Positions 2,076 through 58,299 of a DNA stretch of 64,000 nucleotides are shown one piece after another. The stretch is from Eledone cirrhosa. Lineage: Eukaryota. The position numbers and the translations under genes are program-made. The stretch is from positions 111,910,001 through 111,974,000 of the forward strand of contig OZ024742.1 of the NCBI GenBank assembly GCA_964016885.1, read 5' to 3'. Below the pieces are notes generated by a model that did not search any database, was not told where the DNA came from, and saw only the letters and a list, made by a program, of their open reading frames with translations. The stretch's first letter is position 1, and each line of letters starts with the position of its first letter.

Positions 2076-2262
2076 AGATAATATATCTTATTTCCCTTCT
2101 ACTCACACTACCATTAGAAAGAGAAATAGAAATTAAAGATTAATTTGGTTCTACTGACCCTTCTCACTGGAAGATAGAACTCATGTAGGTAATGAATTCT
2201 TAGTGCTCCCAGACAAGCATTCCCTATAGGGGGTGTCCTAATCTATATATAATAGACACAGG

Positions 2263-2610
2263 ATGAAACTGGGATTTTCCCGTGCTACAAATATGAAAGC
2301 CGACATCACCACCAACACCAAGAGCTCTTTTCCAGGCGAATGCTCTGCAGAAAACCAGAAGCATGCCCTCTGCAACAACAGTGGGAAAGAACTGCAGTCG
2401 TCTATGAGACCGAATTTACATCCACTCAGCCGAATCAACAGCAGGGCGTCAAAACATTTGTAGGTTTGTCAGAGGGCGGGTTTAACAAAAATCTTCCTAA
2501 ATCACCAGACGGGCTTTCGACAATCTGATAAGCGATCGTCCACAAACCTGATAAACCAAGTATTGTCTCTCAAGGATGGAGACGTGAATTCCTACATTAA
2601 TTAGGAACTT
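2263..2610 (+). mobile_element. Decayed 3' fragment (GIY-YIG region) of a YRDDG-type PLE
   Basis: Frameshifted translation (..CRKPEACPLQQQW..VVYETEFTS..TFVGLSEGGF..) parallels the PLE at 55035-55361 (RKPEACPLQQQC..VVSEAVVTS..YYVSMAEGRF). Confidence 0.8.
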
Positions 2611-2723
2611 CTCACCCTTTTGATGCGATAGGGAAATGATTGCCATTATATAAATGCGTATTACACCAAATTGCGTTATAACTTAAAACGATAAATATGA
2701 ATATCCAACATTCGTATTTTTTA

Positions 2724-8120: not shown

Positions 8121-8199
<79 letters not shown>

Positions 8200-8204
<5 letters not shown>

Positions 8205-8378
8205 GATGGAAGTGTGGTAAGGAACCAGATGGACCATAACACACCAGAGTAGTCAATACTTAGGGTAGTAGAATGGGTAATAGGAGAATGTTTCACCTCG
8301 ACGGCAGAGCTCAAACTCTACTCTAGAAATAGCCGTTGAAACGGCTTGAGCTCTGCCGTCGGGTTCAAACATTTTCCT
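8200..8378. mobile_element. Inverted+direct pseudo-LTR remnant of the 21.6-24.6 kb PLE family
   Basis: 8200-8310 matches 21650-21750; 8325-8378 (AGAAATAGCCGTTGAAACGGCTTGAGCTCTGCCGTCGG) matches 24509-24546; flanked by (TA)n. Confidence 0.85.
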
Positions 8379-9588
8379 ATATATATATATATAATTTGTT
8401 TTACTGATTTCTGATTCAAGTAAACTGAATTTTTTGTACTCTCTCCTACAAGGAATATAATATTTCAAATATGTGGGTATAAAATGCAACCGTATCAGGC
8501 GCATTCTCTTTTAATTATTACATTACACCGAACATAACGTGATAAAAAATAACGCATATATTGAACCGTACACTATATACTTATATACAATACACATATA
8601 GTAATCTAGATGATGGTCTTTTCAGCAGTGATCACGTCATGGGTAATTCCACAATCCTGTAAGAATGATAACCTTTAGACCTTCGGGTTCATTATCCACC
8701 ATCAGTGAAGATTAGTCATTCGAAATTAATGCAGATAACCCAGTAGCTTATAAATATATTGTTTGCAAATAATGCATTTTATAAAATGTTTAACTGCATA
8801 CAGTAAGGTGTTATCGGGCTACTATTAATTAGAAGTAGCAGTCACAAAGCGTGTAAATTTGTATATAAACATTTCCTGAAAAAATCCTTTCATATTGTAC
8901 ATACATATGTCTCGCTGTAAGCCTTTTAATTATTCTAAGAATTCAATGTTTATCAGACAACAATAAAACACGTCTTACATATTATCGTAGTAATGTTATA
9001 TTTCACAGGAACATGTTCATATCTCACCTTATCGAGCTTTACATATCTTCAGGTTGAATATATCTGTCTCCGTAATGTATGAACCGTCATGAGTTCAGGA
9101 ATATAGAAACTGTTGCAATATCGACGTCATCCATTTCAATTGCTATATTGAAAATATAGCAATAATGGTTTTGAATATAGAATAATGATTTTGAATTTAT
9201 TTCCCCGGTGATGCACACAACTATATTTTTTAACGAGACGGATATCTGAAAAATGTGAACAATAAAGTAACATTGAATATGCCATAACACAGAGATTAAC
9301 TGTCATGCAGAAGCGCTTTTTTTGTTAAAAATCCATTACCTCAGTCTTCCATTTACTGGCTAACGTACACATTATTGTGTAATGGCAATGTGCAGCTTGT
9401 TACGAAAGTTTATTGCATATTACAACAGTTTCGATATCGATCTGCTAGATCCCAACTCTTAATCGACAGCTCCTCAGATATGCGAGTCTACTTAAGTTGT
9501 CTCATATGTGTATATACACACATACACACACACACCTATATATATATATATACATACACACACGCACAGACTAAAACATGACATCCAG

Positions 9589-10999: not shown

Positions 11000-13330
11000 T
11001 CTACAATGTTATTGGTCATAGATGAAAGAGAAACATACTAAAAGAAATAAAAGCTGAAGGAATAATCTTACAGTACACATTAAAACTATGGAAACAAAAC
11101 TTCGAAAATCCAGAGTCATTGAAACGATGGGTAAAGAGTGAAAAGTGCTTCCCAAAATATGAAGCAGAATTAAAGAAAATACATTACTCAGACAGCCCCT
11201 TAAAAAAGAAACTGAACAAAAAAGAATCTTTAAAGAAACAGCCAAATTTCCAAACTTACCTCATCCAAACCACAGACATAATGCTCCTCAACTCAGAATG
11301 AACGCATTTTAAAGCCAAGCAGAAGAAATAGACGCAATCACTGCAATATAGATAGTAACAAAAACTCTACCAAAAGACGAAACTCCAAGATATCAAATGA
11401 CACCCCATACCATAAGCCCAACAAATTTCAGAAGAAATCCATCCACGCTACGTGAAATACCAACAGATACTATAGCAGGTAACACCCACGAAACTAAATT
11501 AATAGAAAATCAACCCACAGCCGCACATCAAACAGACAATTTGAAAACGACAGCTGCTCTCCAAATAACAATCTTTTTTATCACACGGACAGAAATAACA
11601 AGCTACACGTGAAATTCAACATATGAGAAACCGAAGGTAATCAACCTTCAATTGACAAACGCCAAAATAGATATTTTAAGGGACTGAAATTTACACCCAC
11701 CCGACAAAAATCACGCTTTCCTGAAATGCAAAACTACATTACATAATTACATCAAAAGCCTAGATTAACTGATTTTTTTCTCCGAAAACAATGGCAATGC
11801 GAGGAAACACTAGTTTGAAATAAACGTGATTTCTGCTGAAATAAAAAAATAAAAATAAATGAACAATTCTCTAGTCGCCTACTGCGAACATATGAATTTT
11901 CCATTTGGAAAATTTGGAAATAGAAACAACAAATCACATTTTTCAGAACACAAATGGAAGAACCTAATTAATTTAGTAGGAAACTATTATGAAATCAGAA
12001 TTGAAGAAGCTGATAAAGGTAGCAATGCAGTCCTAATGAATACAGACAAATATAAAGATCTAGTACTGAAAATGTTAGAAGACAAGAGTTACCATGAAAC
12101 ACCAACCAAATATGAATAATCAAATACAATAGAATATATTTTAACTTTTCGAAATAAGTATTGCAAAAGCCTAAACGCGAATAAAATTGACATAAACCAA
12201 TTTAGATGGAAATACAATTTTGTGGCCAACCGAAAATACACAAATACGAACTGATAAATGGTGCTTGTAAAGCCACGACAACCAAATACACCCAGTTAAC
12301 AACTGCAGATGATTTACAGATTAAGCCAATTAAAGAAGAACCTGCATGTGAATCACACTTACCGAGTAATTTCCCGGACATCCTTTTAAAACCCAACTAA
12401 AGATATGTGCAGTGCTACATAGGATATGATGTGGACATGCTGAATAAGTTCCCCAAATCAGACATTTGTTTCGTGAGGCGATGTTAAATTATAAGTAAAC
12501 ATACCCCATGAGAGTGGAATAACTACAATTGGATAATGGCTAGACAAACTGATCCGAATTACCGACATACTTCAAAAATATATCAACCTGGAAGGATTTA
12601 GACTCATATTGCGAAACTATTAATGTTCAAATGATCTTGTACCGACAAATATCAGGAGCTGCAATGAGCACGGAAATAGACCATACACACGCCAATATAG
12701 TCAGAGGCTTCCATAACCAAAATATTTAGAGACAATCATTAATAATATTTTGAGACACATTTCCCACATAACTATGAAACAACTGGATAAGTTACGTGGG
12801 CGATTGCTTTATCTTATGGCAGGGAAATCTTCATACACTCTTCGTAAATCCCAAAATATAATACATACGCTTAGGGGCAACATCCATTTCACAATGGAGA
12901 TTTATACTAGGAAATTAGCTTTTTAGATAACACAAATTCAAAAACAGATCGAAGAAGAGAACAGATATTTTCCATAAACCCACAAAGTTTAAACAGTACT
13001 GTTTACATCAAGTCAACCCGAGAACATACAATTAGAAAAACTAAAAAACAATCTTACGATATCATAAAAAAGGTATTGAAAGGGATAAACCTATATATCC
13101 AAGAGCGAAGGACAACCTTCAAAACCCCTATATCGAAATGTTTAACCACCTCCACAAATTCATTCCTATTCTATATGAAAATGAAAAACAAATTCTAGAA
13201 CCACAAATAACATTAAGATTAAAAGACAACTCAAAACACTAAAGCATGGCATTACTGAGTCACCGAACCCTTAAAAAAAAATATGTTGAACCTCATTGTT
13301 ACAAAACGTGAAAGAACAAATTTGGTATCT
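11000..13330 (+). pseudogene. Heavily decayed Neptune-like Penelope element (RT remnants)
   Basis: Remnant motifs GLKFTPT, IEEADKGSNAVLMN..Y..L.D..Y, PKIHK, YRQISGAAM, IHFTME, with many stops and frameshifts; clade call from recalled motif similarity. Confidence 0.7.
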
Positions 13331-18968: not shown

Positions 18969-20763
18969 ATAATAATAAATTTGAAGACTAAAATCCAAAG
19001 AGGGCTCGATAAGGATAAATATATATCAAATATATAAGAACCGTAGAGCAAATATTTATTAAAATAACAGATTAAAGTTTAATCAAAGAATCGCAGCTTT
19101 CACCCTTAACGGGATCTTCTGAAAACTATTAGCTAAGATCTTTATTTCCCTTATTACGAAGCATTTCCTCCCTACACATAAATATAGTAAAATTTTTAAT
19201 AGAAATACTATTAAAATGTCTTACTCTACGACTCCTAACCTTGCACATAACATAACAGCTTCAAATTTAGTTAAACTACCTAGCCGTAGGAACACGTGCA
19301 ACCCTGTAGTTAGTACTAACTGTAATTGTAGGAATCGGGTTGATTGCCCCCTATCCGGGAAATGCCTCTCTAGAAACATTGTCTACAAATGTAAAGTTGA
19401 AACACCCACGTCCCGTATGGCCTACATAGGGTTAACCGCCAATAGATTCAAGCAGCGTCTTTACATGCATACCCATTCTTTTCATTACCCTCTAAGAAGG
19501 AATATGACGTCACTTTCAGCTTATATCTGGATTCTAAAAGACAACCACCCCCAATTTAAGTTACACTGGGAGATCCTAGCTAGGGCTAGATCGTATAACG
19601 GAAATAAAAGACCATGTGACCTCTGCGCCGCTGAGGCCCTGGAAATACTCTACGCCACAGACAACATCTTAAACAAAAAAATCTGAGGCAATTTCGGCTT
19701 GTAAACATAAATTGCACAAAACTTTCCTTACAGCCCCTCAGTATACCCTAACGGATAGTACGATCTATACGTGGACATATTACGTCTTTATGTGGTAGCT
19801 AAGTATATGTTTAGTTTATACCATTACTTATTTGCATAGGTAAGTATATATTACCTGTATGTTTTGTGAAGGTACGTATACTTTCTGCTACGTATATTTG
19901 ATTGTTTATGTTATGGCGTAAACATTTGTTATATATTCTGGTACATATGGTTTGGTTTTGTGTATACGGGAGTTTTTTTGTCTGAGTGAGTATGCAGGTT
20001 CATACGTATGTAGGGTGTGTGTATATGTGTACTTCATGTTTTGGTTGACTTACGTCTCCTAACATTTGTGTATTTACATGTAGGTATGTGTGTGCGCTTG
20101 TTATATAGGTATTTATTTATTATTATACGTTTATATAATTATTTATTTATTTGTATACACGCACACACACACACACATATATTTATATGTACGTGGTTTT
20201 GTATACCTATGGCAAATGTTTTGCGTATGCTATTGTATGTACGTATTTGCATGCGTGTATGCATTTATTTAATTTCTATTACCTCGGTATTGTATTTATT
20301 TACTTTATTCTTAACTCTGAAGCGGAGATTCATTCGGTTTCCTAATTAGAATTTAGTCTACGACTTCAGCTATACCATTTACGTGGTTTTGTCTTTGCGT
20401 GCCATTGTTCTCCACGCTCCACATATGACGTATTATCTTCGTTTTTTCCGTTCATTGCCAGAGAACGTCTCTATGAACCACCTAAGAGAACATTAGTCTA
20501 CGACTTCTTTTATACCATTAACGTGGTTCTCTCTTTGCGCGTAATTGTTTTTCACCGCTCCTATTAATGACGTATTATATTCTTTTTTTCCCGTTCTTTG
20601 CCAGGGAAGGTTTCGACGAACCAAATTATCGTCTTCCTGTCTTCCTCCGGTTGCAACGTTTTTTGAAATATCCAGTTCTGCGTTTACAGATTGAATTTGT
20701 TAGTTTCAGAAGATCCCGTTAATGGTGAAAGCAGCGATTCTTTGCTTAAACTTTAATCTGTTA

Positions 20764-21562: not shown

Positions 21563-21639
<77 letters not shown>

Positions 21640-21723
21640 ACAAACGAATTGTGGTAAGGAACCAGATGGACCATAACGCACCAGAGTACTCAATACTTAG
21701 GGTAGTAGAGTGTGAAATATGAA

Positions 21724-21832
21724 AAAGTATGACCCCGACGACAGAGATCAAGCCGTTTCGACCGCTATTTCTGGACTAAATTAGAATGTTTAGCCTGGTG
21801 AATAAATAGCCGAACTTGTCAAGGGGGTACGT
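21724..21832 (-). ncRNA. Hammerhead motif, U3-A8 variant (inverted pseudo-LTR copy)
   Basis: Reverse complement of the 24448-24558 motif; TTGTCAA at 21816-21822. Confidence 0.65.
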
Positions 21833-24447
21833 CCTTATATAGGAAGAATGTAGTTGTCAAGAGGATTGGTTAAAATTTGTTGTAAACACCGACACAACAG
21901 ATTCCTACAACAACTCCGTAGCAAAATAACAGAGCATGAAAACATCAAGGACATCATGGTGCACTCGGACAAAACTGTACACATCTACTTCGTCAAGCCT
22001 GACAGATACCACACACTGATTAGGAGCAGCCTAAACTCCACCTATAAAAAGGCTAACTATTCAATTATCGATGACATAACTCGACAACACATTACCTACA
22101 TGGACAACTCATTACCTCCAGCCTGGGGGTCGCCGACCGCACTGAACCCCTAGACCAACGGACGCCCTACTTCACACTGAAGGACCACAAATCCGACTTC
22201 GACCGCAAACCATCCATTAGGCTTATAAACCCAACGGGGTCGGACATAGTGAGAATCAGTAAAAATATCCTAGACCGAGTTATACCAAAAGTTAAGCAAA
22301 ACGTGAGACTTAGCCTATGGGTCAGCACCCAGGAAGTAATCCCATGGTTCAGGAATATGGAGGACAAACGAAACACAAAATTCATCCAGTTTGACATAGA
22401 GAGTTACTATGCATCTATTACCTTACCGCTCCATACGGCCGCCTAGGACTTTGCCGAAACACTCACACCCATCACTGACCAGTAAAGAAATATCATTCTC
22501 CAAGCCAGGAAGACAGTCCTACTTTTCGACAACTCCAAGTGGATAAAGAGAGCTCCCGACTCCCCCCTTCGACGTCAGTATGGCCGCGACGGATTCGGCC
22601 GACGTCACATATATTATAGGATTATTCCTACTATTGAAACTCATCGAAATGTTTCCTGCATTAGGCGGTGGTTTGTAACGAGATGATGGGCTCCTCACCT
22701 TCAAGGGGTACAACCCCAGTAGTACAGAGCGGGTCCGTAAACAACTAATCAACTTCTTCCGGGACTGCGGATTTAAAATCACCCTACAAACGTCAGTAAT
22801 CCGAGTCACTTTCCTGGACGTTATCCTTAACCTCGAAAATGATCTGTACTACCCATACAGGAAACCAAAAGACAACCTCCACTACATCCACCGCCGCTCT
22901 AACCATTCTAGAAACATCACCAATAACCTGGTTAAAAACATCTCCCTCCACGTATCTCGTTTGTCCGCTAACGAGCAGATATTCGACGGACACGCGCCTC
23001 ATTACAACCAGGGCTTCAAGCGGAGTGGCTTCCGGGAGGAAATATCCTTTTATCGAGCTTCCTTCAGCGGAACCAGCAGGCGACACCGCCGCTCACGCAA
23101 CGTAACGTGGTTCAATCCTCCCCATAATGCCGAGGTGGCAACACCTATTGGGAAATTAGACTCCTCGAAAAACACTTCCCATTACAAGACCGCTACCACA
23201 ACATAATCAACAAAAAACACCATCAAACTCTCCGACAGCACCAAACCTAACTTCGCACCGTCTTCTCAAACAACAAAAAAGTCAACCCCTATGGAAGACA
23301 TATTCTAGACATCAGTGGAGAGCCGACCAGGAGGTGTAACTGCCCTGATAGATCTACGTGCCCCCTCAACAACAAATGCGGAGAACGTAACGTGATCTAC
23401 CAGTGCAACGTGAGGACGGACACCTCCAACAAAGCTTATATAGGATTTTCCGCGTGTGACATCAAGACCCTGCTCTACCAACACGGATGAACTTTCCGAA
23501 ACCCGGTCCGGCAACATTCCACTACACTTTCGGGTCATATCTGGGACCTCAAAGATAATAATATAACCTACAATCTCACTTGGAGCTTAATGTCCAGAGC
23601 TAACTCTTGCACGGGAGGACGCCGTCCGTGTAACCTATGTTCGGAGGAAACATTACAAATGCTGTTTTCGAGGGACCAACTCCTAAACAAGAAAGACGAA
23701 CTGGCAACCGCGTGCAAACACAGATTGCGTAGGACTTACCTCGCCCTTAAACCCCATAACGACCCGGGTGGGTAGACAAGTGCTGATACCCCCACCCCAA
23801 CACTGGCCGAATAAGTTAGGGGAAAGCCCAGCTTACATAGGTAGATGTATATCTTTCATTTTCCTCTTTGTCTTCTTCTTCCCCCTGTCTCATCCTATCA
23901 CTTCCTTCCACCCACTATTTTCTTCCACGTCTGCTTTTCCTCTTTCGGCTACCCCGATGCAGCCCATCGGGCTTCTGTAGCATCAGTCCCCCAACCCTGT
24001 AATTTTAAGATAGAATTGGCCGAATACGTTTTACTAACTACTTATAGCAGATGTGTTAAACTCCTGTTTGTATCAGTTTTGTAAATTCTACAAGTTGTGT
24101 TCTATTCTCAACTTATTAACCTATAATTGTAAGATAGCATTGTGATTTTTTTTATTCATTTCTCACTTTCTAATTTTATGTATGTTTTTATTTCTTTCTA
24201 GTATCTTTTATTGTCTCCTACTCTCATTCGATTTACCTATTCTATAACCTCCCTCCTCCACTTCATACACTATCCTTAGAATCTGCTGTATACATATCAC
24301 TTTCAACGCTTGACCGATCCACTCACTCCCCTATTGTTCTACAGGTAAGTTCAGCCACCCCTACCTCCCACCAAATGCCATGATAGACATTTGTGTTTAC
24401 AACACATTTTAACCAATCCTCTTGACAACTACAATCTTCCCATATAA

Positions 24448-24557
24448 GGAAGTACCCCCTTGACAAGTTCGGCTATTTATTTACCAGGCTAAAAATTCTA
24501 ATTAGTCCAGAAATAGCCGTCGAAACGGCTTGAGCTCTGCCGTCGGTGTCATACTTT

Positions 24558-24558
<1 letters not shown>
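24448..24558 (+). ncRNA. Type I hammerhead ribozyme, U3-A8 core variant with long stem II
   Basis: CCCC-TTGACAA(24460-66)-G..CGGCTATTT/AAATAGCCG..C-GAAA(24522-25)-CGGC ttgagctct GCCG-TC-GG; GUC site at 24542-24544. Confidence 0.75.
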
Positions 24559-24588
<30 letters not shown>

Positions 24589-48064: not shown

Positions 48065-49732
48065 TTAAGTTAGCCATGTCAGCTCATTTCTCTCAGCCCG
48101 GTTGTTAAGTGGGGGTCTGAGGTTCTTAATAACAAGTGCTTCCTTTATCCTTAAGGATCCGATGCTGCGTTCAGTCGCTAGGACTGTGACCAAGGGTCTA
48201 CCCTGTGGGTTTCCGCATTTAAGGATGTGTTTACGGAAGGAAGATGCGTTGGTGTTGATATGTTCCTTGATACGAACATGTAGGGGTCGGATGGTGCTAC
48301 CTATGTAAAACTTGTTACATTTATCGCATTGAATCTTATATACGACATAGGTGCGTAGGCAATCTGCCCCCCGTATCGGGCAGTTGCTGAGGGAACACGT
48401 CCCATCTGACTCGTCGGGTTTGTTGGAGAGGCATCTTCGCAGCGATGGTCCTGTGTGGGCCAAATGTATGTCAAGTCCCTCCGTCCGTATGGCCCTGCGG
48501 ATGGCGTTTGTGGTATATTCACTCAGGTGGGGGATTTTAAAGAAGCACCTGCTTTTATTTAAGTTTCTAGTGGGTGTCTGTCTATTGGGTCTGGGGTCTC
48601 TAATTCCGTTAATCAGTCGCTTGGGATATCCATTAGACCTGAGTAGATTACGGAATTGCGTGGTATGGGTGAGACCACCCATCGGGTCGCTGCATCTGTT
48701 AGTGATCCGTGTCAGTTCATTTAGGACATAGTTGGGGAGGGCTGAGTTGTAATGCACAAATAAGTCCTTGCACGCTGCTTTGCGGTAGAAGGTGGTGTTT
48801 ATGTCTCCTTCTTCCGAGATGTTGATACGGAAGTCGAGGAGGGCGAGTGACCCGTCTTCTCCTGTGTGTTCGATGGTGAAATCGACGTGATGGTCAGTAT
48901 CGTTGAAGATTTGGTGAATTTCATTCGCCATCTCCCGGGAAGAAGTAAGTATCAGGATGTCATCAACGTATCTGGAGTAGAAGGCGACGGCGTTGGGTTG
49001 GCAGGTATTGAACGCCTTGCGTTCCACGTGGTCCATGTACGAGATCGCAAGTATGCCGGACAGACTAGAGCCCATAGGTAGCCCAGAGATGTGTTTGTAC
49101 GTGTGGCCGAGGAAATTGAAGAGTGCATTATCCACAACGAAGGAGAGGAGTTGGTGGATGTCCGTGTGTGTGAGTCCGAAGCAGTGTAAGTTAGATGCTC
49201 GGACTCGTTCGGTCAACAGGTCGACGGCTGGGGATGCTGGTACGGAGGTATAAAGGGCGACCACATCAAGACTGAAGGCATAACCGTTGTCCTTTCTAGT
49301 GTTGGGCGCCAGATGGTGTTGTCGCTCCAAGACCACCTCCTTTGAGCTGCAGACGTGGGCTGGTAGTGTGTGTAGAATAGGTTTCAGTAGTGTGGAGAGC
49401 AGCCACGATATTTTGTAGAGTGGGCCCTCCACGCTAGAGACAATGGGCCTGATTTTCAAATCGGGTCCTTGTTTATGTGTTTTAACCAGGTGGTAGAAGG
49501 TGGGTAGTTTGCTGTTTCGAGTCATTATGTTGTTTTTTACCTTCTTTGGCAGTTTTCGTTGGACACAGATGTTAGTCCATGTGGTGTTAATGCCTTCCTC
49601 GATTAGAGTCGAGGAGGTCCCTGTGACTTTCGAGTAGAGGCTGTGGTCATTAAGATGTTGGAGAGCTAAGTTGTTGTAGGTTTCTCTCGAGATGACACAG
49701 AATTCTTTCCCCTTGTCAGAGGGAAGGTACAC
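48065..49732 (-). CDS. Penelope-like element RT + C-terminal GIY-YIG endonuclease (Nematis-like), 5'-truncated, 555 aa open
   Basis: SDKG, KTHK..IRPIV, SLDVVALYT, GLPMGS, RYVDD, LLDF, Cys linker CSLSNC, VVYKIQCDKC..FYIGST.R.L..R..EH, E...I...P.LN. Confidence 0.95.
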   Translation of the reverse strand: MYLPSDKGKEFCVISRETYNNLALQHLNDHSLYSKVTGTSSTLIEEGINTTWTNICVQRKLPKKVKNNIMTRNSKLPTFYHLVKTHKQGPDLKIRPIVSSVEGPLYKISWLLSTLLKPILHTLPAHVCSSKEVVLERQHHLAPNTRKDNGYAFSLDVVALYTSVPASPAVDLLTERVRASNLHCFGLTHTDIHQLLSFVVDNALFNFLGHTYKHISGLPMGSSLSGILAISYMDHVERKAFNTCQPNAVAFYSRYVDDILILTSSREMANEIHQIFNDTDHHVDFTIEHTGEDGSLALLDFRINISEEGDINTTFYRKAACKDLFVHYNSALPNYVLNELTRITNRCSDPMGGLTHTTQFRNLLRSNGYPKRLINGIRDPRPNRQTPTRNLNKSRCFFKIPHLSEYTTNAIRRAIRTEGLDIHLAHTGPSLRRCLSNKPDESDGTCSLSNCPIRGADCLRTYVVYKIQCDKCNKFYIGSTIRPLHVRIKEHINTNASSFRKHILKCGNPQGRPLVTVLATERSIGSLRIKEALVIKNLRPPLNNRAERNELTWLT

Positions 49733-50558
49733 AAGGTTCCTGGATCTTAGGTTTCGCTACGTAGACCAATACATCCTGCGTAGCGAAACCTTGGACTTAG
49801 AACCGGCAGGCTCGTCTGTCGCGAAAGCGTTCAACCCCTGAAACTAAAAGATCGAACGGACCACATCCGGCAACCACTGGCTATTAGATCCACAGGTACA
49901 TCTCCCAGAGAGTCCACGCAGATAATAGTGAACCCCAGGTGATCTATGAACGTTTAAACAAGACCAGCTGCGCCTGGAGCTATGCAGATGATTGCATACG
50001 CATAATGGATATCGTGCCTGGAGCTATGCAGGGGACTGCATAGGCAGAATGGATATCGCGCCCACACGGTCACCAGTACTGTTCATCCTGTTATATGTAT
50101 GTAAATATCAGTGCGCGGGATATCCCTGAGTACATTTTCCTGACCATCAATTCTTAATCAATTGTTTGTTATTTAGGCAAGAATGTACTATTGTGTCTGT
50201 GCTAATCCTATGTGTTGCTGTGCTGTGTGTGTGTAAAGTATCCGAGCGCGGGATATCCCTGAGCTAATTTTGCCTGACCGTTAATAGTGTTCTGATTACT
50301 TGTTGATGGGCAGGAATATATATTGTTGTCTTTGTTGATCCTGTATCAATAACTTTGTGATAATTTTGTAATAATTTTATGATAATTTTGTAATAATTTT
50401 GCGATAATTTTATGATAATTTGATAATTGTGTAATGATTTTGTGGTAATTTTGTGATGATTTGATAATTTTGTAATGATTTTGTGGTAATTTTGTAATAA
50501 TTTTGTATAATTTTAGAATGTTTTTTTTTGTGATAATACATGGTTAGATCACTGAAGC

Positions 50559-51584: not shown

Positions 51585-52370
51585 AATGTAATCTGAGTTT
51601 TTTGAATATTAATAATAACATTCAATTCGTTTTCAATTATACAAACAAGTCTCAATTTTATAGCAATGTCAGTAGAATGAACCCTTCATTATTGCTATTG
51701 TGTTGGAATATGAACAGAACTGCAGACACTAATGTTTCTGGGTATCACCCTTCATCAGTACAGCTTACTGTTCACCTGCCACAGTTAGAGCTAGTGAAAA
51801 TATATGCTATTTTCAAAAATACACAGTGACTGATCGGCCTGATTTGCATATTAGCAGACTGGTTGATCAGTCAGATCAGCATATTAGCGGATCCACTGAT
51901 CAGCCAGATTTGCATATCACCAGACTGGCCAGTCCGTTTCCTGTATCCGAGCGACAAATGGCCGGCTTTGCAAAAACAAATAAAAAAGAAATGTTCGCTC
52001 TACATGGCTGAATACAATAAATGTAATCTGAGTTTTTCGATTATTAATAATAACATTCGATTCGTTTGCAATTATGCAAACAAACCTCAATTTTATAGCC
52101 ATGTCAGTAGAATAAACCCTTCATTCTTGCTCTTGTGTTGGCATGTGAACAGAACTGCAGACACTAACGTTTCTGGGTATCACCCTTCATTAACTGTGAC
52201 AGTTTGGCAGGTGAACAGTGTGATGTATTGTTGAAGGGTGATACCCAGAAACATTACTGTCTGCAGTTCTGTTCACATGCCAACACAAGAGCAAGAATGA
52301 AAGGTTCATTCTACTGACATGGCTATAAAATCGAGGCTTGATTGCATAATTGCAAACGAATCGAATATTC
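51585..52370 (-). mobile_element. Non-coding HHR-bearing tandem repeat (435 nt unit) plus inverted copy; same family as 37870-38388
   Basis: Units start at 51587 and 52022; 52200-52370 is an inverted copy. Confidence 0.88.
51717..51766 (-). ncRNA. Canonical type I hammerhead ribozyme motif
   Basis: Minus strand AAGCTGTA-CTGATGA-AGGGTGATACCCA-GAAA-CATTAGTG-TC-TGCAGTTC; intact core, GUC site, near-palindromic stem III. Confidence 0.85.
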
Positions 52371-52389
52371 ATGTGCTAAAAAAGCGAAA

Positions 52390-52780
52390 GCCCGCATCAC
52401 CACGAAACCCTCAAGCATTTCCACACCCGGATGCTCTTGCAGAAGGCCAGAAGCATGCACTCTTTAGCAACAGTGTTACATTGCTGCAGTATTTCATGAG
52501 GTAGAAGTTACATCTTCTCGACCAAATCAATTGCAGGAGCTCACACTATGTGTTGGTATGTTGGAGGGCCGGTTAAAAGAACGCTTCCTTACTCGCCAGA
52601 CGACCTTTAGACAACCCGACAAGCGAATTTCGACGAAGCTGGCAAGCTACATAGAGTCACTCAAAGATGCAGATGTGAAGTACTCCATTCAATGGAAAGT
52701 TCCGATCAAACCAGGGCCTACGGAAATGGAGAAATCTTGTGTAAGCCATGTATTTATGAAAGGGTGAATATATTGCAAGT
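52390..52780 (+). mobile_element. Decayed GIY-YIG fragment of a YRDDG-type PLE
   Basis: VGMLEGRLKERFLTRQTTFRQPDKRISTKLASYIESLKDADVKYSIQWKV is homologous to 55200-55360. Confidence 0.85.
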
Positions 52781-53097
52781 ACTAGTACTTAACTCACCAG
52801 AAAATCAGAGATTCTTAATCGCTACATCATCGCTATGAAGTACCTGTTATATAACTTGATATACCCGGGATAATCATCAACTTTAACGCAATGAACTCAA
52901 TCAAAAATTGTCTCCTTCGCATCAGTGTAATTTGAGTTAACTCTCTTATCAACAAAATATTGCCATATATCACATAGAATCTTGCCAGCTTATATACACG
53001 ATTAAGTGAAACACGCTTGTTCAAGTATGGTTTGCTAATTTGTAGCGGATCTAACTATCTCTTCTCTCTCATTTCCCTATATATATATATATATATA

Positions 53098-53263
53098 GAA
53101 AAATGTTCAAGACGGCAGAGCACAAGCTGTTTCGACGGCTTTTTCAGTCCAGCTTGAGCTCTGCCGTCGGAGTCTTGAACATTTTCCTATTAACCACTCT
53201 ACTACCCAAAGTATTGAGTTATTGCGTTATGGTGCACCTGGTTCCTTAACACACTTCCTTCGT

Positions 53264-53265
<2 letters not shown>
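53098..53265 (+). mobile_element. Inverted+direct pseudo-LTR remnant (24.5 kb family)
   Basis: GACGGCAGAGC..TTTCGACGGCT / CTTGAGCTCTGCCGTCGG..; the tail is the reverse complement of 21645-21730. Confidence 0.8.
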
Positions 53266-53328
<63 letters not shown>

Positions 53329-53402
53329 ACACACACACAAACACACACACAGACTCACAAACAAATATATATATATGAGTGTGTGCATATATATAATATA
53401 TA

Positions 53403-55817
53403 GTCCAATGCTTTGTTTAACAGCGTCTCTGAGATCGCTGGGTAAAAATCAACAATGTCAAACTGTGAACTTCGCTTTTTGGGATTTGAAGGAGTTAAAC
53501 CACTTAATTACGGAGTCGCTGTTCTCCCACTGGGGCAGGTTGGACTTGGTCCTAATGGTCTTAACTATGTTTCTAAGTATGGCCTTACTGACTAGACCCA
53601 TATCAGTGCGTGCTGGGTTTATTAGTCTACATGTGGGTTTAGAAGTAAAGGCTACCTTGTGATCTTTCAGGGTGAGGTACGCCTCCCGCTTAGCTAGATA
53701 TTGTAGCTTCTTATCTACCTTAAGTGCGGCAGCAAGTTCTTTGGCTTCTGTATTAATGTCGTGGTAGGCCATAAGGTTAGCTTTCTTATATTTGGAAGTA
53801 ATAGCGTTATGGGCCAGGTGGCGGAAAGTGGCTTTGTCGACTTCGTAAATGTTATTAGTTTTGTCGGAAAGAACGAAAGTGTTATTAGAAGACCTAAATT
53901 TCTTGATATCATTTCTAAGTTTAGTTTGAAAGGTGTTAGGATGTTTGCTAAAGGAAATGTTAGCGACTAAGTCAAGAAGGTCCGCCTCGAAAGGAGCAAG
54001 TTCAGTTACCTTAGGAGGGTAGGTTCTCGATTTCAGGTTGAAGGTGTTATCGGTGCCTGTAATGTTGCCATTAGGACCAAGTCCAACCTGTCCCAGTGGG
54101 AGAACAGCGACTCAGTAATTAAGTGGTTTAACTCCTTTAAATCCCAAAAAGCGAAGTTCACACAGTTTGACAATGTTGATCTTTACCCGTCGAGATCAGA
54201 GATACTGTTAAACAAAGCATTGGACTTCGCTACCACTTACGCTACCTTCGATGGTTTAGACAGGTAAATCATCGCTCACTGCCGGAAATCCCTCCTCTTC
54301 AACGACGGAGTAGCCTGGGCAAAGAAGTCAACAACTTCAGACCTATTCGACGTCTCCATGGGTTCGTTTGACAGTGCTGACGTATTCGACATGGTTGGCC
54401 TATTTATTTTAGACATATTACGTGTTAGATTCCCGGACTTAAACACGGGAATATACTGCGATGATGGACTGACCTTATCGAGCCATAAAAGTGTTCACAA
54501 CATTGACAGGTTTAAAAAGGACTTAGCTTCTACCTTCAATGAGTTAGGACTTAGGATAACGGTAGCTACCAACCTGTCTAGCGTAGAATTCTTAGACATT
54601 AATTTAGACCTTCGCAAACACACCTACACACCCTTCCATAAGCTAAACGAAAAACTCAATTACATTCACAAGGACTCATGTCACCCTCCCATTGTCTTTA
54701 GAAACTTCGTAAATAATATCAGTACTAGAATCCCAAACCTCTCCCCTAATAAGGCTATCTTTGACAGGGCGGCACTTACTATAACACGGCGTTAGCTAAC
54801 AGCGGCTTCTCGCAACCTATCACTTACTCTCCCACTATCAACAATAGCAATAAGAAACGAAAGCGTAACAATAGACAAACTATCTGGTTCTCTCCTCCCT
54901 TCTCACTCAATGTTAAAACCAATGTAGGCAAACAATTTCTAGCCCTCTTAGATAGACATTTTCCCATAGGTCATAAATACCGCTCCATCTTTAACTGACA
55001 CAAAGTAAAAATAGGATACTCCTGCGCTAAGAACATGAAGGCCCACATCACCAACAGCCCTAAGACCAGCACCCCACCAGGGTGCTCTTTCCGTAAGCCT
55101 GAAGCTTGTCCCCTTCAACAGCAATGCAACACACCCGCTGTAGTTTCTGAAGCTGTAGTCACTTCCAACCGACGAAATCAACCACAGAAGGTCAAATATT
55201 ATGTGAGTATGGCGGAGGGCCGATTTAAGGAACGCTTCCTGAACCACCAGTCGACCTTTAGGTACCCGGACAGCCGTTCATCTACGAAACTCGCGAGCCA
55301 CGTATGGTCACTCAAGGACTCAAGTATAGACTACTCCATTCAATGGAAAGTCATCACTTAGTCCAGGCCATACGCAATGGGAAATCCCTCGTGTGGACTA
55401 TGTGTTGATGAACAAATAAATATTCTAAAGAGATTGTGCAATAGCGATTGCCTAAACACGAGAAATGAATTATTCACACGTTGTCCACACGTCTCGAAAG
55501 CCTCTTACGTAACTAAAAAGCTCCGGATTGAATTACAACAACATCCTAATTTTCTTATCAACTAGAACTTTTCTGACTTTCGCAGTTTTGTCGCTTACAC
55601 CTCTCGCACGCATTTTAGTATTGCCTTGTGAAGTGATCGTGTCTGTGCATGCGCGTTCGTACGGTCGTACATACTGTTCCATTACGAGCTGAGGATCCGC
55701 TAAGGTGAAACAATTGTTCTCGGTATGGTGAACTAACTGCTGTGTAACCACTTCTACCTAACTCTTCCCATAGACTGAGTGCTCTACCACTACGGTTATT
55801 ACCTTCCAGTGTTCTAC

Positions 55818-55820
<3 letters not shown>
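53403..55820 (+). mobile_element. YRDDG-type (Hydra-clade-like) PLE with inverted 5' segment; disrupted RT+GIY-YIG
   Basis: 53403-54065 minus-strand N-terminal part (YLTLKDHK..CRLINP); 54068-55565 plus strand MGSFDSAD..GIYCDDGL..FLDINLDL..IWFSPP..CGLC..LNTRNE..CPH. Confidence 0.92.
55683..55725 (+). ncRNA. Minimal hammerhead ribozyme in PLE pseudo-LTR
   Basis: CGAG-CTGAGGA-TCC gctaa GGT-GAAA-CAATTG-TT-CTCG; palindromic stem III ACAATTGT. Confidence 0.85.
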
Positions 55821-55879
<59 letters not shown>

Positions 55880-56055: not shown

Positions 56056-56117
56056 GTCTGTATACATATATGTATGTACGTATACATACATACCTACTTA
56101 CATTTATATATATAGTC

Positions 56118-57187
56118 TGACTTACTTTACATTTTCAGCAAAAAGGGGAGATAAAGCTGACAGAGCTGTTTCGTACTGATTGGTACTTATCAAAGCCAAG
56201 TACACCCCTTGATTGCTGTAAATCATTAATGTTTGATTCTTATAGAATTTCTAGTAATAATCAGGAACTGATTATACAGAGCGGTTGCCGGTCAAGCAGA
56301 AATTGAAAATTAGAATTGGTGCTCTGAGATAGCGATATATATATGAATGTATATATATAGTGTATTTTGCAATACATGCTTAATTAAAAGCATTTCGAAA
56401 AGCTTTGATAAGTATCAATCAGTTCGAAACATAGCTCTGTCAGCTTTATCTCCCCTGTTTGCTGAAAACTTAAAATAAGTGAGACTGTCACTACTCTAAA
56501 ACAATAGCATACGGTCTTAGAAATGCTTTTAATTAAGCATACAGTGTATTGCAAAATACACTATATATACATTCATATATATATATCGCTATATCAGAGC
56601 ACCAATTCTAATATCAATTTCTGCTTGACCGGCAACGGCTCTGTATAATCAGTTCCTGATTATTACTAGAAATTCTATAAGAATCAAACATTCATGATTT
56701 TCAGCAAACAGGTGGAGTACTTGGCTTTGATAAGTACCAATCAGTACGAAACATAGCTCTGTCAGCTTTATCTCCCCTGTTTGCTGAAATTTTAAAGTAA
56801 GTGAGACTGTCACTACTCTAAAACAATAGCATAAGGTCTTCGAATTGCTTTTAATTAAGCATACAGTGTATTGCAAAATACACTATATATACATTCATAT
56901 ATATATCGCTATTTCAGAGCCCCAATTCTAATTTCAATTCCTGCTTGACCGGCAACCGCTCTGTATAATCAGTTCCTGATTATTACTAGAAATTCTATAA
57001 GAATCAAACATTCATGATTTTCAGCAAACAGGTGGAGTACTTGGCTTTGATAAGTACCAATCAGTACGAAACATATCTCTGTCAGCTAAAATTTAAAGTA
57101 AGTGAGACTGTCACTACTCTAAAACAATAGCGTAAGGTCTTCGAATTGCTTTTAATTAAGCATATAGTGTATTGCAAAATACACTAT

Positions 57188-57188
<1 letters not shown>
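56118..57188 (+). mobile_element. Retrozyme-like array: ~320 nt non-coding units with U3-A8 hammerheads (3 direct + 1 inverted)
   Basis: TTGATAA cores at 56405, 56727 and 57047; 56118-56396 is inverted; no credible ORF. Confidence 0.88.
56699..56789 (+). ncRNA. Extended type I hammerhead, U3-A8 variant
   Basis: TTTCAGCAAACAGG..GGAG..GGCT-TTGATAA-GTAC caatca GTAC-GAAA-CATAGCTCTG-TC-AGCT..CTCC-CCTGTTTGCTGAAA. Confidence 0.85.
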
Positions 57189-57819: not shown

Positions 57820-58215
57820 GATTGGCAGTATCTGTAGAGGGCGGGCGCCATGCTTTGAAGCATAGAGTTAACACCCTTTATGATCTGGGTTCAAATCCCG
57901 CCGAGGTTAACGTTGCCTTTCATCCTTACGGGGTCGATAAAATAAAGTACCAGTAATGTACTGGGATTATTGCTGGCCTTGTGCCAAACGTAGAAACAAT
58001 TATAATTATCATCCAAAAGTAGGGCGGTGAATTGGCAGTATCAGTAGAGGGTCGGACATACTTTCCAGCATAGTTACGTTCCTTTACGATCTGAGTTCAA
58101 ATCCCGCCGAGGTTAACTTTGCCTTTCATCTTTACGGGGTCGATAAAATAAAGTACCAGTAATGTACTGGGATAATTGCTGGCCTTGTGCCAAACATAGA
58201 AACAATTATAATTAT
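57820..58215 (+). mobile_element. Head-to-tail SINE dimer
   Basis: Two full copies, 57820-58010 and 58022-58215, each with A/B boxes. Confidence 0.92.
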
Positions 58216-58299
58216 CATCTAAAAGATCGTCAACAATAATCCTCATGACAACCATCTCCAGTTTCATCCTAGGTCTCTTCTTCCTTATCATCTCCCTCC

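What the first reader, a model, noticed from the sequence alone, without database searches (positions are those of the whole stretch)
56118..57188. Coding-free ~320-nt tandem array of hammerheads with a compensatory U3-A8 core: candidate retrozyme/circRNA family
Seen: three direct motifs (GUC sites ending at 56441, 56763 and 57083, giving 322 and 320 nt units) plus one inverted copy, all reading TTGATAA..GAAA rather than CTGANGA..GAAA. The middle copy has stem II GTAC/GTAC, a near-palindromic stem III, and a stem I extended by a perfect 14-bp helix beyond an internal loop. That loop region (TTGG) could contact CCAA at stem/loop II. Known: C3-G8 is a tertiary Watson-Crick pair, U3-A8 swaps can retain activity, and tandem 150-400 nt type I HHR units are the layout of animal non-LTR retrozymes that yield circRNAs. 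Inference: a family that canonical CUGANGA motif searches would miss, mobilised in trans by PLE enzymes. It lies ~300 bp downstream of a PLE.
Basis: partly seen in the sequence, partly recalled or inferred. Interest (0 to 1): 0.85.

Follow-up and report, generated by a model that had tools for sequence, protein, structure and literature searches.

The report
Hammerhead retrozyme bearing Penelope insertion footprints
This is one of thousands of genomic copies of a 320-base, non-coding repeat that carries a predicted self-cutting RNA (hammerhead ribozyme) with a rare swapped core pair, and its insertion ends bear the marks of Penelope-type retrotransposons, which likely copy it around the genome, possibly through a small RNA circle.

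Summary
In detail: three direct and one inverted type I hammerhead motifs with a U3-A8 core, 322/320 nt apart, with no ORF. The array is one insertion of a dispersed family (3,720 exact matches of an 18-mer). Covariation supports the fold. A sister subfamily has C3-G8 at the same columns, and stems I and II show compensatory changes. No copy is a shared pseudo-LTR of a coding element (174 loci), and the upstream Hydra-type PLE is an unrelated neighbour. The new result is a full PLE insertion footprint on a retrozyme: (TA)n targets, 5' truncation, head-to-head inversion (107 of 183 blocks) and two 3' end sites about 27 nt apart. The two arms of an inversion use different sites in 66 of 80 cases (p about 1e-9), matching the PLE 'tail'. 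Both arms derive from one template variant, and most copies run through the cleavage site. A circular template fits this, but so does an uncleaved multimer. U3-A8 hammerheads and non-LTR retrozymes are both published. Cleavage, transcription and circles are untested, as no RNA run was available. Verdict: new variant of a known kind.

The parts
56114..56399 (-). Inverted arm of the insertion (unit positions 76-322 then 1-45); its outer end is shortened and abuts a TA-rich microsatellite
   Evidence: BLAST of unit 1 against the window; inverted repeats I2, I3, I11
56132..56223 (-). Hammerhead of the inverted arm: U3 at 56193, C17 at 56159; stem III 2 nt shorter; distal stem I with mismatches
   Evidence: Rfam HH9 20.8 bits
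56402..57188 (+). Direct arm: 40-nt truncated start, two full units and a partial unit ending in the TA tract (site A region), followed by (GA)n
56400..56447 (+). Hammerhead copy 1 (U3 56405, C17 56441), truncated at the inversion junction, stem II broken; likely inactive
56442..56763 (+). Unit 1, cleavage site to cleavage site, 322 nt, 34% GC; predicted monomer/circle
   Evidence: circular MFE -78.1 kcal/mol, z=-6.1 (40 shuffles)
56543..56562 (+). 8-bp hairpin with GCAA tetraloop just upstream of 3'-end site A (present in each unit)
   Evidence: present in 5 of 5 circular folds printed (6 bp in one)
56561..56612 (+). 3'-end sites of family copies mapped on unit 1: site A (TA tract 56561-56586), about 27-nt tail, site B ending 56612 (unit 2: 56883-56906 and 56932)
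56699..56789 (+). Hammerhead copy 2, the complete one: distal stem I, internal loop, 4-bp stem I, U3-A8 core (56727-56733), stem II GTAC/GTAC, 3-bp stem III, GUC at 56761-56763
56764..57083 (+). Unit 2, 320 nt, 96% identical to unit 1
57019..57087 (+). Hammerhead copy 3 (U3 57047, C17 57083); 19-nt deletion removes the 3' strand of distal stem I
   Evidence: Rfam HH9 26.1 bits
55821..56113 (.). TA-rich microsatellite between the Hydra-type PLE 3' end and the inverted arm: the inferred shared target

Best explanation
The array is one insertion of a protein-free, multi-copy 320-nt repeat with a type I hammerhead fold (a non-LTR retrozyme) that is likely transcribed, predicted to cut itself into unit-length RNA and close into a circle, and likely copied into (TA)n microsatellites by the reverse transcriptase/GIY-YIG protein of a Penelope-like element acting in trans. 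Steps: (1) Read-through transcription of a tandem array (inferred). (2) Cleavage after GUC by a hammerhead whose 3-8 tertiary pair is U-A (fold supported by covariation; activity untested); the palindromic stem III could also pair between neighbouring units (predicted). (3) The long distal stem I holds the 5' and 3' ends of the cut monomer together, favouring ligation (predicted). (4) The PLE protein nicks both strands at (TA)n and starts reverse transcription at two internal sites about 145 and 172 nt past the cut site, one per strand (two end sites and their alternation are shown; the enzyme is inferred). (5) cDNA runs back across the ribozyme junction for a fraction of a unit up to many units, and the two cDNAs join head to head, giving tandem arms plus an inversion (structure shown; route inferred). 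A Neptune-type family is the best candidate donor, on weak evidence.
For: Family size: 459, 1,555, 304, 1,272 and 3,720 exact pattern matches, controls 0-1. Fold: 95.6% of 2,140 cells paired in 80 copies; pair 3-8 UA 59/CG 18; stem II UA 58/CG 20 and CG 68/UA 6; two distal stem I pairs GC to AU; slid controls 31-46%. The core is kept in relatives about 70% identical, with different stems. No shared 5' flank or common pLTR-ORF junction among 99 open 5' ends in 174 loci, nor seen in 20 more loci. PLE footprint: 107 inverted, 75 single-orientation, 1 other block; the arms use different end sites in 66 of 80 (expected 49.5%, p=9e-10); site B ends abut (TA)n in 106 of 115. The same alternation occurs in a related 310-nt family (16 of 16) and in a coding Neptune-like family (10 of 11). 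It matches the two RT start sites, tail and both-strand nicking of a PLE protein (PMC11167929) and the inversion and one-ended tail in PMC8557442. One template per insertion: subfamily-diagnostic sites are discordant at 7.7% in tandem pairs and 5.9% in inverted pairs, against 40.2% in random pairs. In the young family, 16 units in both arms of L343 share one locus-specific variant with one private change. 111 of 169 segments cross a cleavage site intact. Neptune-like hints: one sense ORF-to-element junction (L054), a U3-A8 minimal hammerhead, and a site B ending in the same 7 letters.
Against: No expression, cleavage or circle was observed. A purified PLE protein used unprocessed RNA as its main substrate (PMC11167929), so crossing the junction needs no circle. 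In L344, 3 of 8 units share two variants that the others lack, and L361 shows nested variants, so some arrays are mixed or locally expanded. The compensatory changes amount to about five inherited events, not 78 independent ones. The hammerhead fold is 2-3 kcal/mol above the MFE in U3-A8 copies because AGCU of stem III competes for stem I. Only 1 of 9 predicted Xenopus retrozyme dimers cleaved in vitro (10.64898/2026.07.22.740005). No PLE with a homologous pLTR was found, so the donor is unidentified. Loci come mostly from contigs C1-C3.
Confidence: 0.6

Rival explanations
1. Same non-autonomous PLE-driven element, but the template is an uncleaved linear multimer from a homogeneous donor array; ribozyme cleavage is slow or serves another step, and no circle is used.
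For: Hammerhead mutants did not affect insertion by a PLE protein in vitro, and unprocessed RNA dominated. Mixed units in L344. The family C ribozyme is a minimal, dimer-type motif. All end and concordance data fit equally.
Against: Arms of 4 and 12 full units with one shared variant (L343) need a long, uniform donor transcript surviving many ribozymes. The window family has a 4-bp stem III in most copies, which suits monomer cleavage. Related animal retrozymes make abundant circles (PMC7229834, passages).
Confidence: 0.28
2. The unit is only the pseudo-LTR of a coding PLE whose body was not sampled; the arrays are truncation debris.
For: Truncation, inversion, tail and (TA)n targeting are pLTR features. 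Retrozymes are proposed to derive from pLTRs. One ORF junction exists (L054).
Against: Upstream of the ribozyme, copies continue into the unit itself, closing on their own start; 20 of 169 segments cross two or more cut sites. No shared non-unit 5' flank among 99 open ends. The L054 ORF family has its own, unrelated pLTR in 29 other loci. A profile search of 1.46 Mb of held DNA found only unit relatives among the low-scoring hits printed.
Confidence: 0.06
3. A satellite or minisatellite that spreads by DNA-level duplication, with a vestigial ribozyme.
For: Two long arrays (13 and 15 units in view, 12-13% internal divergence) and nested variants in L361 show that local expansion happens.
Against: 85 of 110 blocks have one ribozyme per strand; ends fall at two fixed sites next to (TA)n; head-to-head inversions alternate sites; compensatory changes are present.
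Confidence: 0.03
4. A SINE-like element mobilised by a LINE rather than a PLE.
For: 5' truncation, inversion and microsatellite 3' ends also occur with LINEs (own knowledge). One LINE-like RT frame ends 234 nt upstream of a copy (L076).
Against: The 3' ends lie inside the ribozyme-defined unit at two alternating sites, the tail described as unique to PLEs; no B box, and T4 runs occur in the unit.
Confidence: 0.03

Closest known systems
Metazoan non-LTR retrozymes (Cervera and de la Pena 2020, PMC7229834; Li et al. 2026, 10.64898/2026.07.22.740005)
   Same: Tandem units in the 150-450 nt range, GC 34%, no ORF, one type I hammerhead per unit, dispersed monomers to multimers, PLEs in the same genome
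   Different: U3-A8 core fixed in the main subfamilies, with at least two switches among relatives; an 18-bp distal stem I; mapped PLE tail, inversion and (TA)n target, which I did not see in the text read; RNA not shown here
PLE pseudo-LTR hammerheads, including the U3-A8 variant of Schistosoma Cercyon (PMC4209133)
   Same: U3-A8 covariation; palindromic stem III; opposite-strand pairs 100-700 bp apart
   Different: Those are minimal motifs tied to coding PLEs. This one has a 4-bp stem III, a 6-nt loop II and an internal loop aligning to Rfam HH9, in a unit that closes on itself without an ORF
Poseidon PAc of Anolis (PMC11167929) and PLE insertion structure (PMC8557442)
   Same: Two internal start sites downstream of the ribozyme, tail at one end, both strands used, AT-rich target, inverted 5'-truncated copy
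   Different: No protein; tail about 27 nt (published 30-40); start sites in and after a TA tract rather than an AC-rich stem-loop
Non-autonomous Chlamys PLEs such as MRC1 (PMC8557442, passage)
   Same: Protein-free, multicopy head-to-tail PLE-type insertions
   Different: Those resemble an autonomous family at the 3' end, and most Chlamys lack canonical hammerheads; no such partner was found here

Membership tests
Type I hammerhead ribozyme | Core N3-UGA-N-N8-A / GAAA / UH with a Watson-Crick 3-8 pair | tested here: met
   280 of 291 aligned copies U3-A8, 28 of 29 sister copies C3-G8
Type I hammerhead ribozyme | Stems I, II, III around the core, open at stem I, with covariation | tested here: met
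   stem III shows little two-sided change (1 cell), and its fourth pair is broken in 15 of 79
Type I hammerhead ribozyme | Loop 1 to loop 2 tertiary contact | tested here: inconclusive
Type I hammerhead ribozyme | Site-specific self-cleavage | not testable with these tools
   needs an in vitro assay
Non-LTR retrozyme | Tandem units of 150-450 bp, each with a type I hammerhead, GC under 50% | tested here: met
   27 full monomers of 317-327 nt; GC 34-35%
Non-LTR retrozyme | No coding capacity; not flanking an ORF | tested here: met
Non-LTR retrozyme | Dispersed, multi-copy in the genome | tested here: met
Non-LTR retrozyme | Absence of PBS/PPT; TSDs longer than 4 bp when present | not tested
   not searched; microsatellite flanks obscure TSDs
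Non-LTR retrozyme | Expressed as unit-length linear and circular RNA | not testable with these tools
   no RNA holder listed
Autonomous PLE (pseudo-LTR) | Repeat flanks an RT + GIY-YIG ORF in recurrent copies | tested here: not met
   1 unique ORF junction in 99 open 5' ends; that ORF family has a different pLTR
PLE-mobilised insertion (works like) | 5' truncation, adjacent inverted copy, tail at one end, microsatellite target | tested here: met
PLE-mobilised insertion (works like) | 3' similarity to an identified autonomous partner | tested here: inconclusive
   none to the Hydra-type neighbour; only a 7-letter end match to a Neptune-like family

The most novel reading that the evidence does not exclude
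A superfamily of ~310-322 nt RNA circles in this genome is reverse-transcribed rolling-circle fashion by a dimeric Neptune-type PLE protein that primes both nicked strands on one circle at two offset sites. The genome thus records the retrozyme life cycle base by base, while the ribozyme core has flipped between C3-G8 and U3-A8 at least twice to tune cleavage against circle survival.
Probability: 0.25. Interest if true: 0.75.

Novelty: new variant of a known kind. Interest (0 to 1): 0.52.

Why it matters
Which enzyme moves animal retrozymes, and from what template, is open. A 2020 review says their repeats show no motif pointing to the donor (PMC7761336, passage), and a 2026 preprint argues from homology and co-occurrence while leaving the mechanism unresolved. 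This family carries the PLE tail, inversion and target signature in hundreds of countable insertions. It gives exact predicted priming sites for an in vitro test of circular against linear templates. It also offers natural C3-G8 and U3-A8 versions of the same ribozyme for comparing cleavage rates. The ribozyme variant and the element class themselves are not new.

Tried and rejected
RNA evidence: no RNA holder listed. The three runs laid were genome-like contigs of one sample and say nothing on expression. First test for C3-G8 relatives: 0 matches, because the loop was fixed too tightly; found with a looser pattern. TTGG-CCAA contact: rejected. Link to the adjacent PLE: rejected, as there is no homology; its 3' ends lie within 600 nt of 7 of 174 loci and Neptune-like ends of 9 of 174, which shared targets explain. 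Footprint of in vivo cleavage at 5' ends: 17 ends in positions 1-20 against 23 in the 57 flanking positions (p=0.017, bins chosen after looking), 6 within positions 0-2; stalling at distal stem I explains it equally, so it is only a hint. Rfam miRNA hits are microsatellite noise. Rfam gathering thresholds were not reached, even by a C3-G8 copy (Hammerhead_1, 15.4 bits). Pol III boxes (recalled consensus): no strict A or B box. Core columns vary only slightly less than the rest of the unit (3.3% against 4.8%), which is weak. A protein search with the neighbour's RT gave two unnamed 702-703 aa relatives. Lunse et al. (PMC5785218) is not held and was not read. Earlier scan findings: none. No covariance model was built.

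Full report
Observation. The direct arm spans 56402-57188 and the inverted arm 56114-56399. Units are 322 and 320 nt, 34% GC, with no frame over 77 aa. Copy 2 is complete (z=-5.4) and the inverted copy nearly so. Copy 1 is cut by the inversion junction with stem II broken, and copy 3 lacks 19 nt of the stem I 3' strand. Rfam HH9 aligns below threshold.

Family. The genome is 3.0 Gb. Its host is probably a cephalopod, a guess from a recalled repeat resemblance that no call names. Exact pattern counts: 459 for the window's core, 1,555 for a looser core (control 1), 304 for a stem II variant, 1,272 for a 33-mer and 3,720 for an 18-mer at the 3' end. I mapped 174 loci (duplicates removed by hand; mostly contigs C1-C3; seeded by BLAST, by the core and by a non-core 33-mer) plus 20 seeded by the 18-mer. 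Most insertions are short: 85 of 110 blocks in the first 107 loci have one ribozyme per strand. Two are long arrays, with 13 and 15 units in view.

Ribozyme. A sister subfamily (318-nt unit, about 85% identical) has C3-G8. The G8 pattern gave 123 matches. Of 30 G8 contexts read, 26 had C3 although position 3 was not in the pattern, and 4 were U3-G8 single changes in the main family. Over aligned copies, 280 of 291 main-family copies are U3-A8 and 28 of 29 sister copies C3-G8. In 80 copies (window copy 2, the 60 main-family and 19 of the 23 sister stretches listed), 95.6% of cells pair. Two-sided changes occur at 3-8 (59 UA/18 CG), in stem II (58 UA/20 CG; 68 CG/6 UA) and at two distal stem I pairs; slid controls pair at 31-46%. 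The inner 4 bp of distal stem I were left out because the subfamilies align one column apart. These are a handful of inherited events, not independent cells. More distant relatives exist: family D (U3-A8, about 70% identical, other stems; 23 U3-A8 motifs printed from 25 loci; 2,864 first-look candidates) and family C (310 nt, C3-G8, minimal stem III, GUA site; 1,018 exact matches). A 32-row tree needs 3 changes between C-G and U-A, 2 forced by well-supported branches. Some rows include junction sequence and the root is arbitrary, so polarity is unknown. Stem III is a perfect palindrome in 32 of 80 copies (12-bp homoduplex -20.1 kcal/mol), so monomer and dimer folds are both open. In U3-A8 copies the active fold is 2-3 kcal/mol above the MFE. 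Circular monomers fold at z -5.4 to -7.0 (5 folded, 40 shuffles each).

Not a pseudo-LTR. Upstream of each ribozyme the sequence continues into the unit itself. In loci not chosen for the core, 111 of 169 segments cross a cut site and 20 cross two or more. Among 99 open 5' ends no non-unit flank recurs at a common breakpoint; five chance pairs lie at different positions. The neighbouring PLE (53402-55822) has the DKT motif and a CxC-type linker described for Hydra (the linker is degenerate in this copy), its own C3-G8 hammerhead at 55689 and no similarity to the unit. One locus, L054, joins about 2.5 kb of a Neptune-like ORF in sense, broken in the linker, to the element's 5' end; no endonuclease part lies on the far side. 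That family has CX4CX2C and CCHH-type motifs and a different pLTR with a minimal U3-A8 hammerhead. Template switching or later deletion both explain the junction.

Insertion footprint. In 172 loci (two long arrays left out), 107 blocks are head-to-head inversions, 75 single-orientation and 1 other. The 3' ends fall at site A (an internal TA tract, unit positions 125-156) or site B (163-182), about 27 nt further on. Site B ends abut (TA)n in 106 of 115 cases, site A ends in 105 of 153. Of 107 inversions, 80 have two canonical ends, and 66 of these pair A with B (11 AA, 3 BB; expected 49.5%; p=9e-10). Family C does so in 16 of 16 inversions among 20 loci picked for multiple copies (read; 6 of 6 by strict pattern), and the coding Neptune-like family in 10 of 11. 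Frangieh et al. (PMC11167929; abstract, main text and part of the methods read) show a PLE protein nicking both strands of AT-rich DNA and starting at two internal RNA sites that bound the genomic tail. Craig et al. (PMC8557442; passages and section 11) describe the inverted copy, one-ended tail and (TA)n targets. The window fits partly: its direct arm ends in the site A region and its inverted arm is shortened.

Template. Tandem units and inverted partners agree at 8 subfamily-diagnostic sites (26 of 337 and 21 of 354 comparisons discordant, against 1,761 of 4,377 for random pairs) while differing by 4.2-4.6% elsewhere (random 5.7%). The window's three pairs have 0 discordant sites of 15. In young family C (81 units, 24 loci), differences per unit are 0.38 between opposite arms, 1.81 within an arm and 5.19 between loci; L343 has 16 units sharing one locus-specific variant. 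Each insertion thus derives from one template variant, as a circle would give. Against a strict monomeric circle: L344 mixes two unit types, L361 shows local expansion, and the PLE protein used unprocessed RNA in vitro. The slight excess of 5' ends just inside the cut site is ambiguous.

Comparison with what is known. Non-LTR retrozymes are described with circles in coral, mussel and axolotl (PMC7229834, passages). They are proposed to be non-autonomous PLE derivatives (10.64898/2026.07.22.740005, parts 1-3 of 5, introduction to discussion; supplements closed). U3-A8 is a known natural, active covariation (PMC3088659, passages) and occurs in about 1,300 Schistosoma PLE motifs (PMC4209133, parts 1-2 of 4). 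Searches for hammerhead + U3-A8, octopus + hammerhead ribozyme, retrozyme + cephalopod and retrozyme/inverted/Penelope/target-primed listed no description of this family or of a PLE tail on retrozymes. The library is incomplete, Lunse et al. was not available, and supplements and Repbase were not seen, so the family may already be catalogued as a repeat.

Verdict. The feature is real. It meets every genomic criterion tested for a non-LTR retrozyme and fails the test for a coding PLE's pLTR; the RNA criteria are untested. It works like a PLE-mobilised element. Element class about 0.88; circular template about 0.6 overall; Neptune-type donor perhaps 0.4. What adds value is the countable PLE footprint.

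Noticed in passing
window 53402-55822: Broken Hydra-type PLE with a 5' inversion (53402-54111 on -), its own C3-G8 hammerhead at 55689, and two family 3' ends (55756 and 55822), a 66-nt tail.
   Followed up: partly
window 48065-49756 (-): 563-aa stop-free PLE frame with RVT_1 (E 4e-10) and GIY-YIG (below cut-off); clade not determined.
   Followed up: partly
window 2257-2616, 19210-19578, 21896-23595, 52357-52701, 11991-12840: Further Hydra-like and Neptune-like PLE fragments; the 64-kb window holds at least six PLE remnants.
   Followed up: no
L237:4800-5900, L343-L362: Family C: a very young 310-nt relative with a minimal C3-G8 hammerhead, 1,018 exact matches and head-to-head arrays of up to 16 full units; the best material for testing the circle model.
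   Followed up: yes
L318-L342, L330, L279: Family D and further U3-A8 relatives with unpaired A flanking stem II and different stem I; older lineages of the same unit.
   Followed up: partly
L249-L277: Abundant young Neptune-like PLE family (2,179 first-look candidates, 96-98% identical) whose pLTR has a minimal U3-A8 hammerhead and alternating 3' ends about 65 nt apart.
   Followed up: partly
L033:3258-3540; window 8146-8393, 21583-21784, 24498-24580, 53079-53267: TA-flanked ~250-nt repeat with a long near-perfect palindrome, found in 94 of 362 held loci (some overlapping); nature not determined.
   Followed up: no
L292:2713-3340: Tandem array of a 165-nt deletion derivative of the unit that lacks the ribozyme.
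   Followed up: no
window 57866-58225: Two 154-nt copies, 206 nt apart, of a SINE-like repeat (the SINE label is recalled).
   Followed up: no
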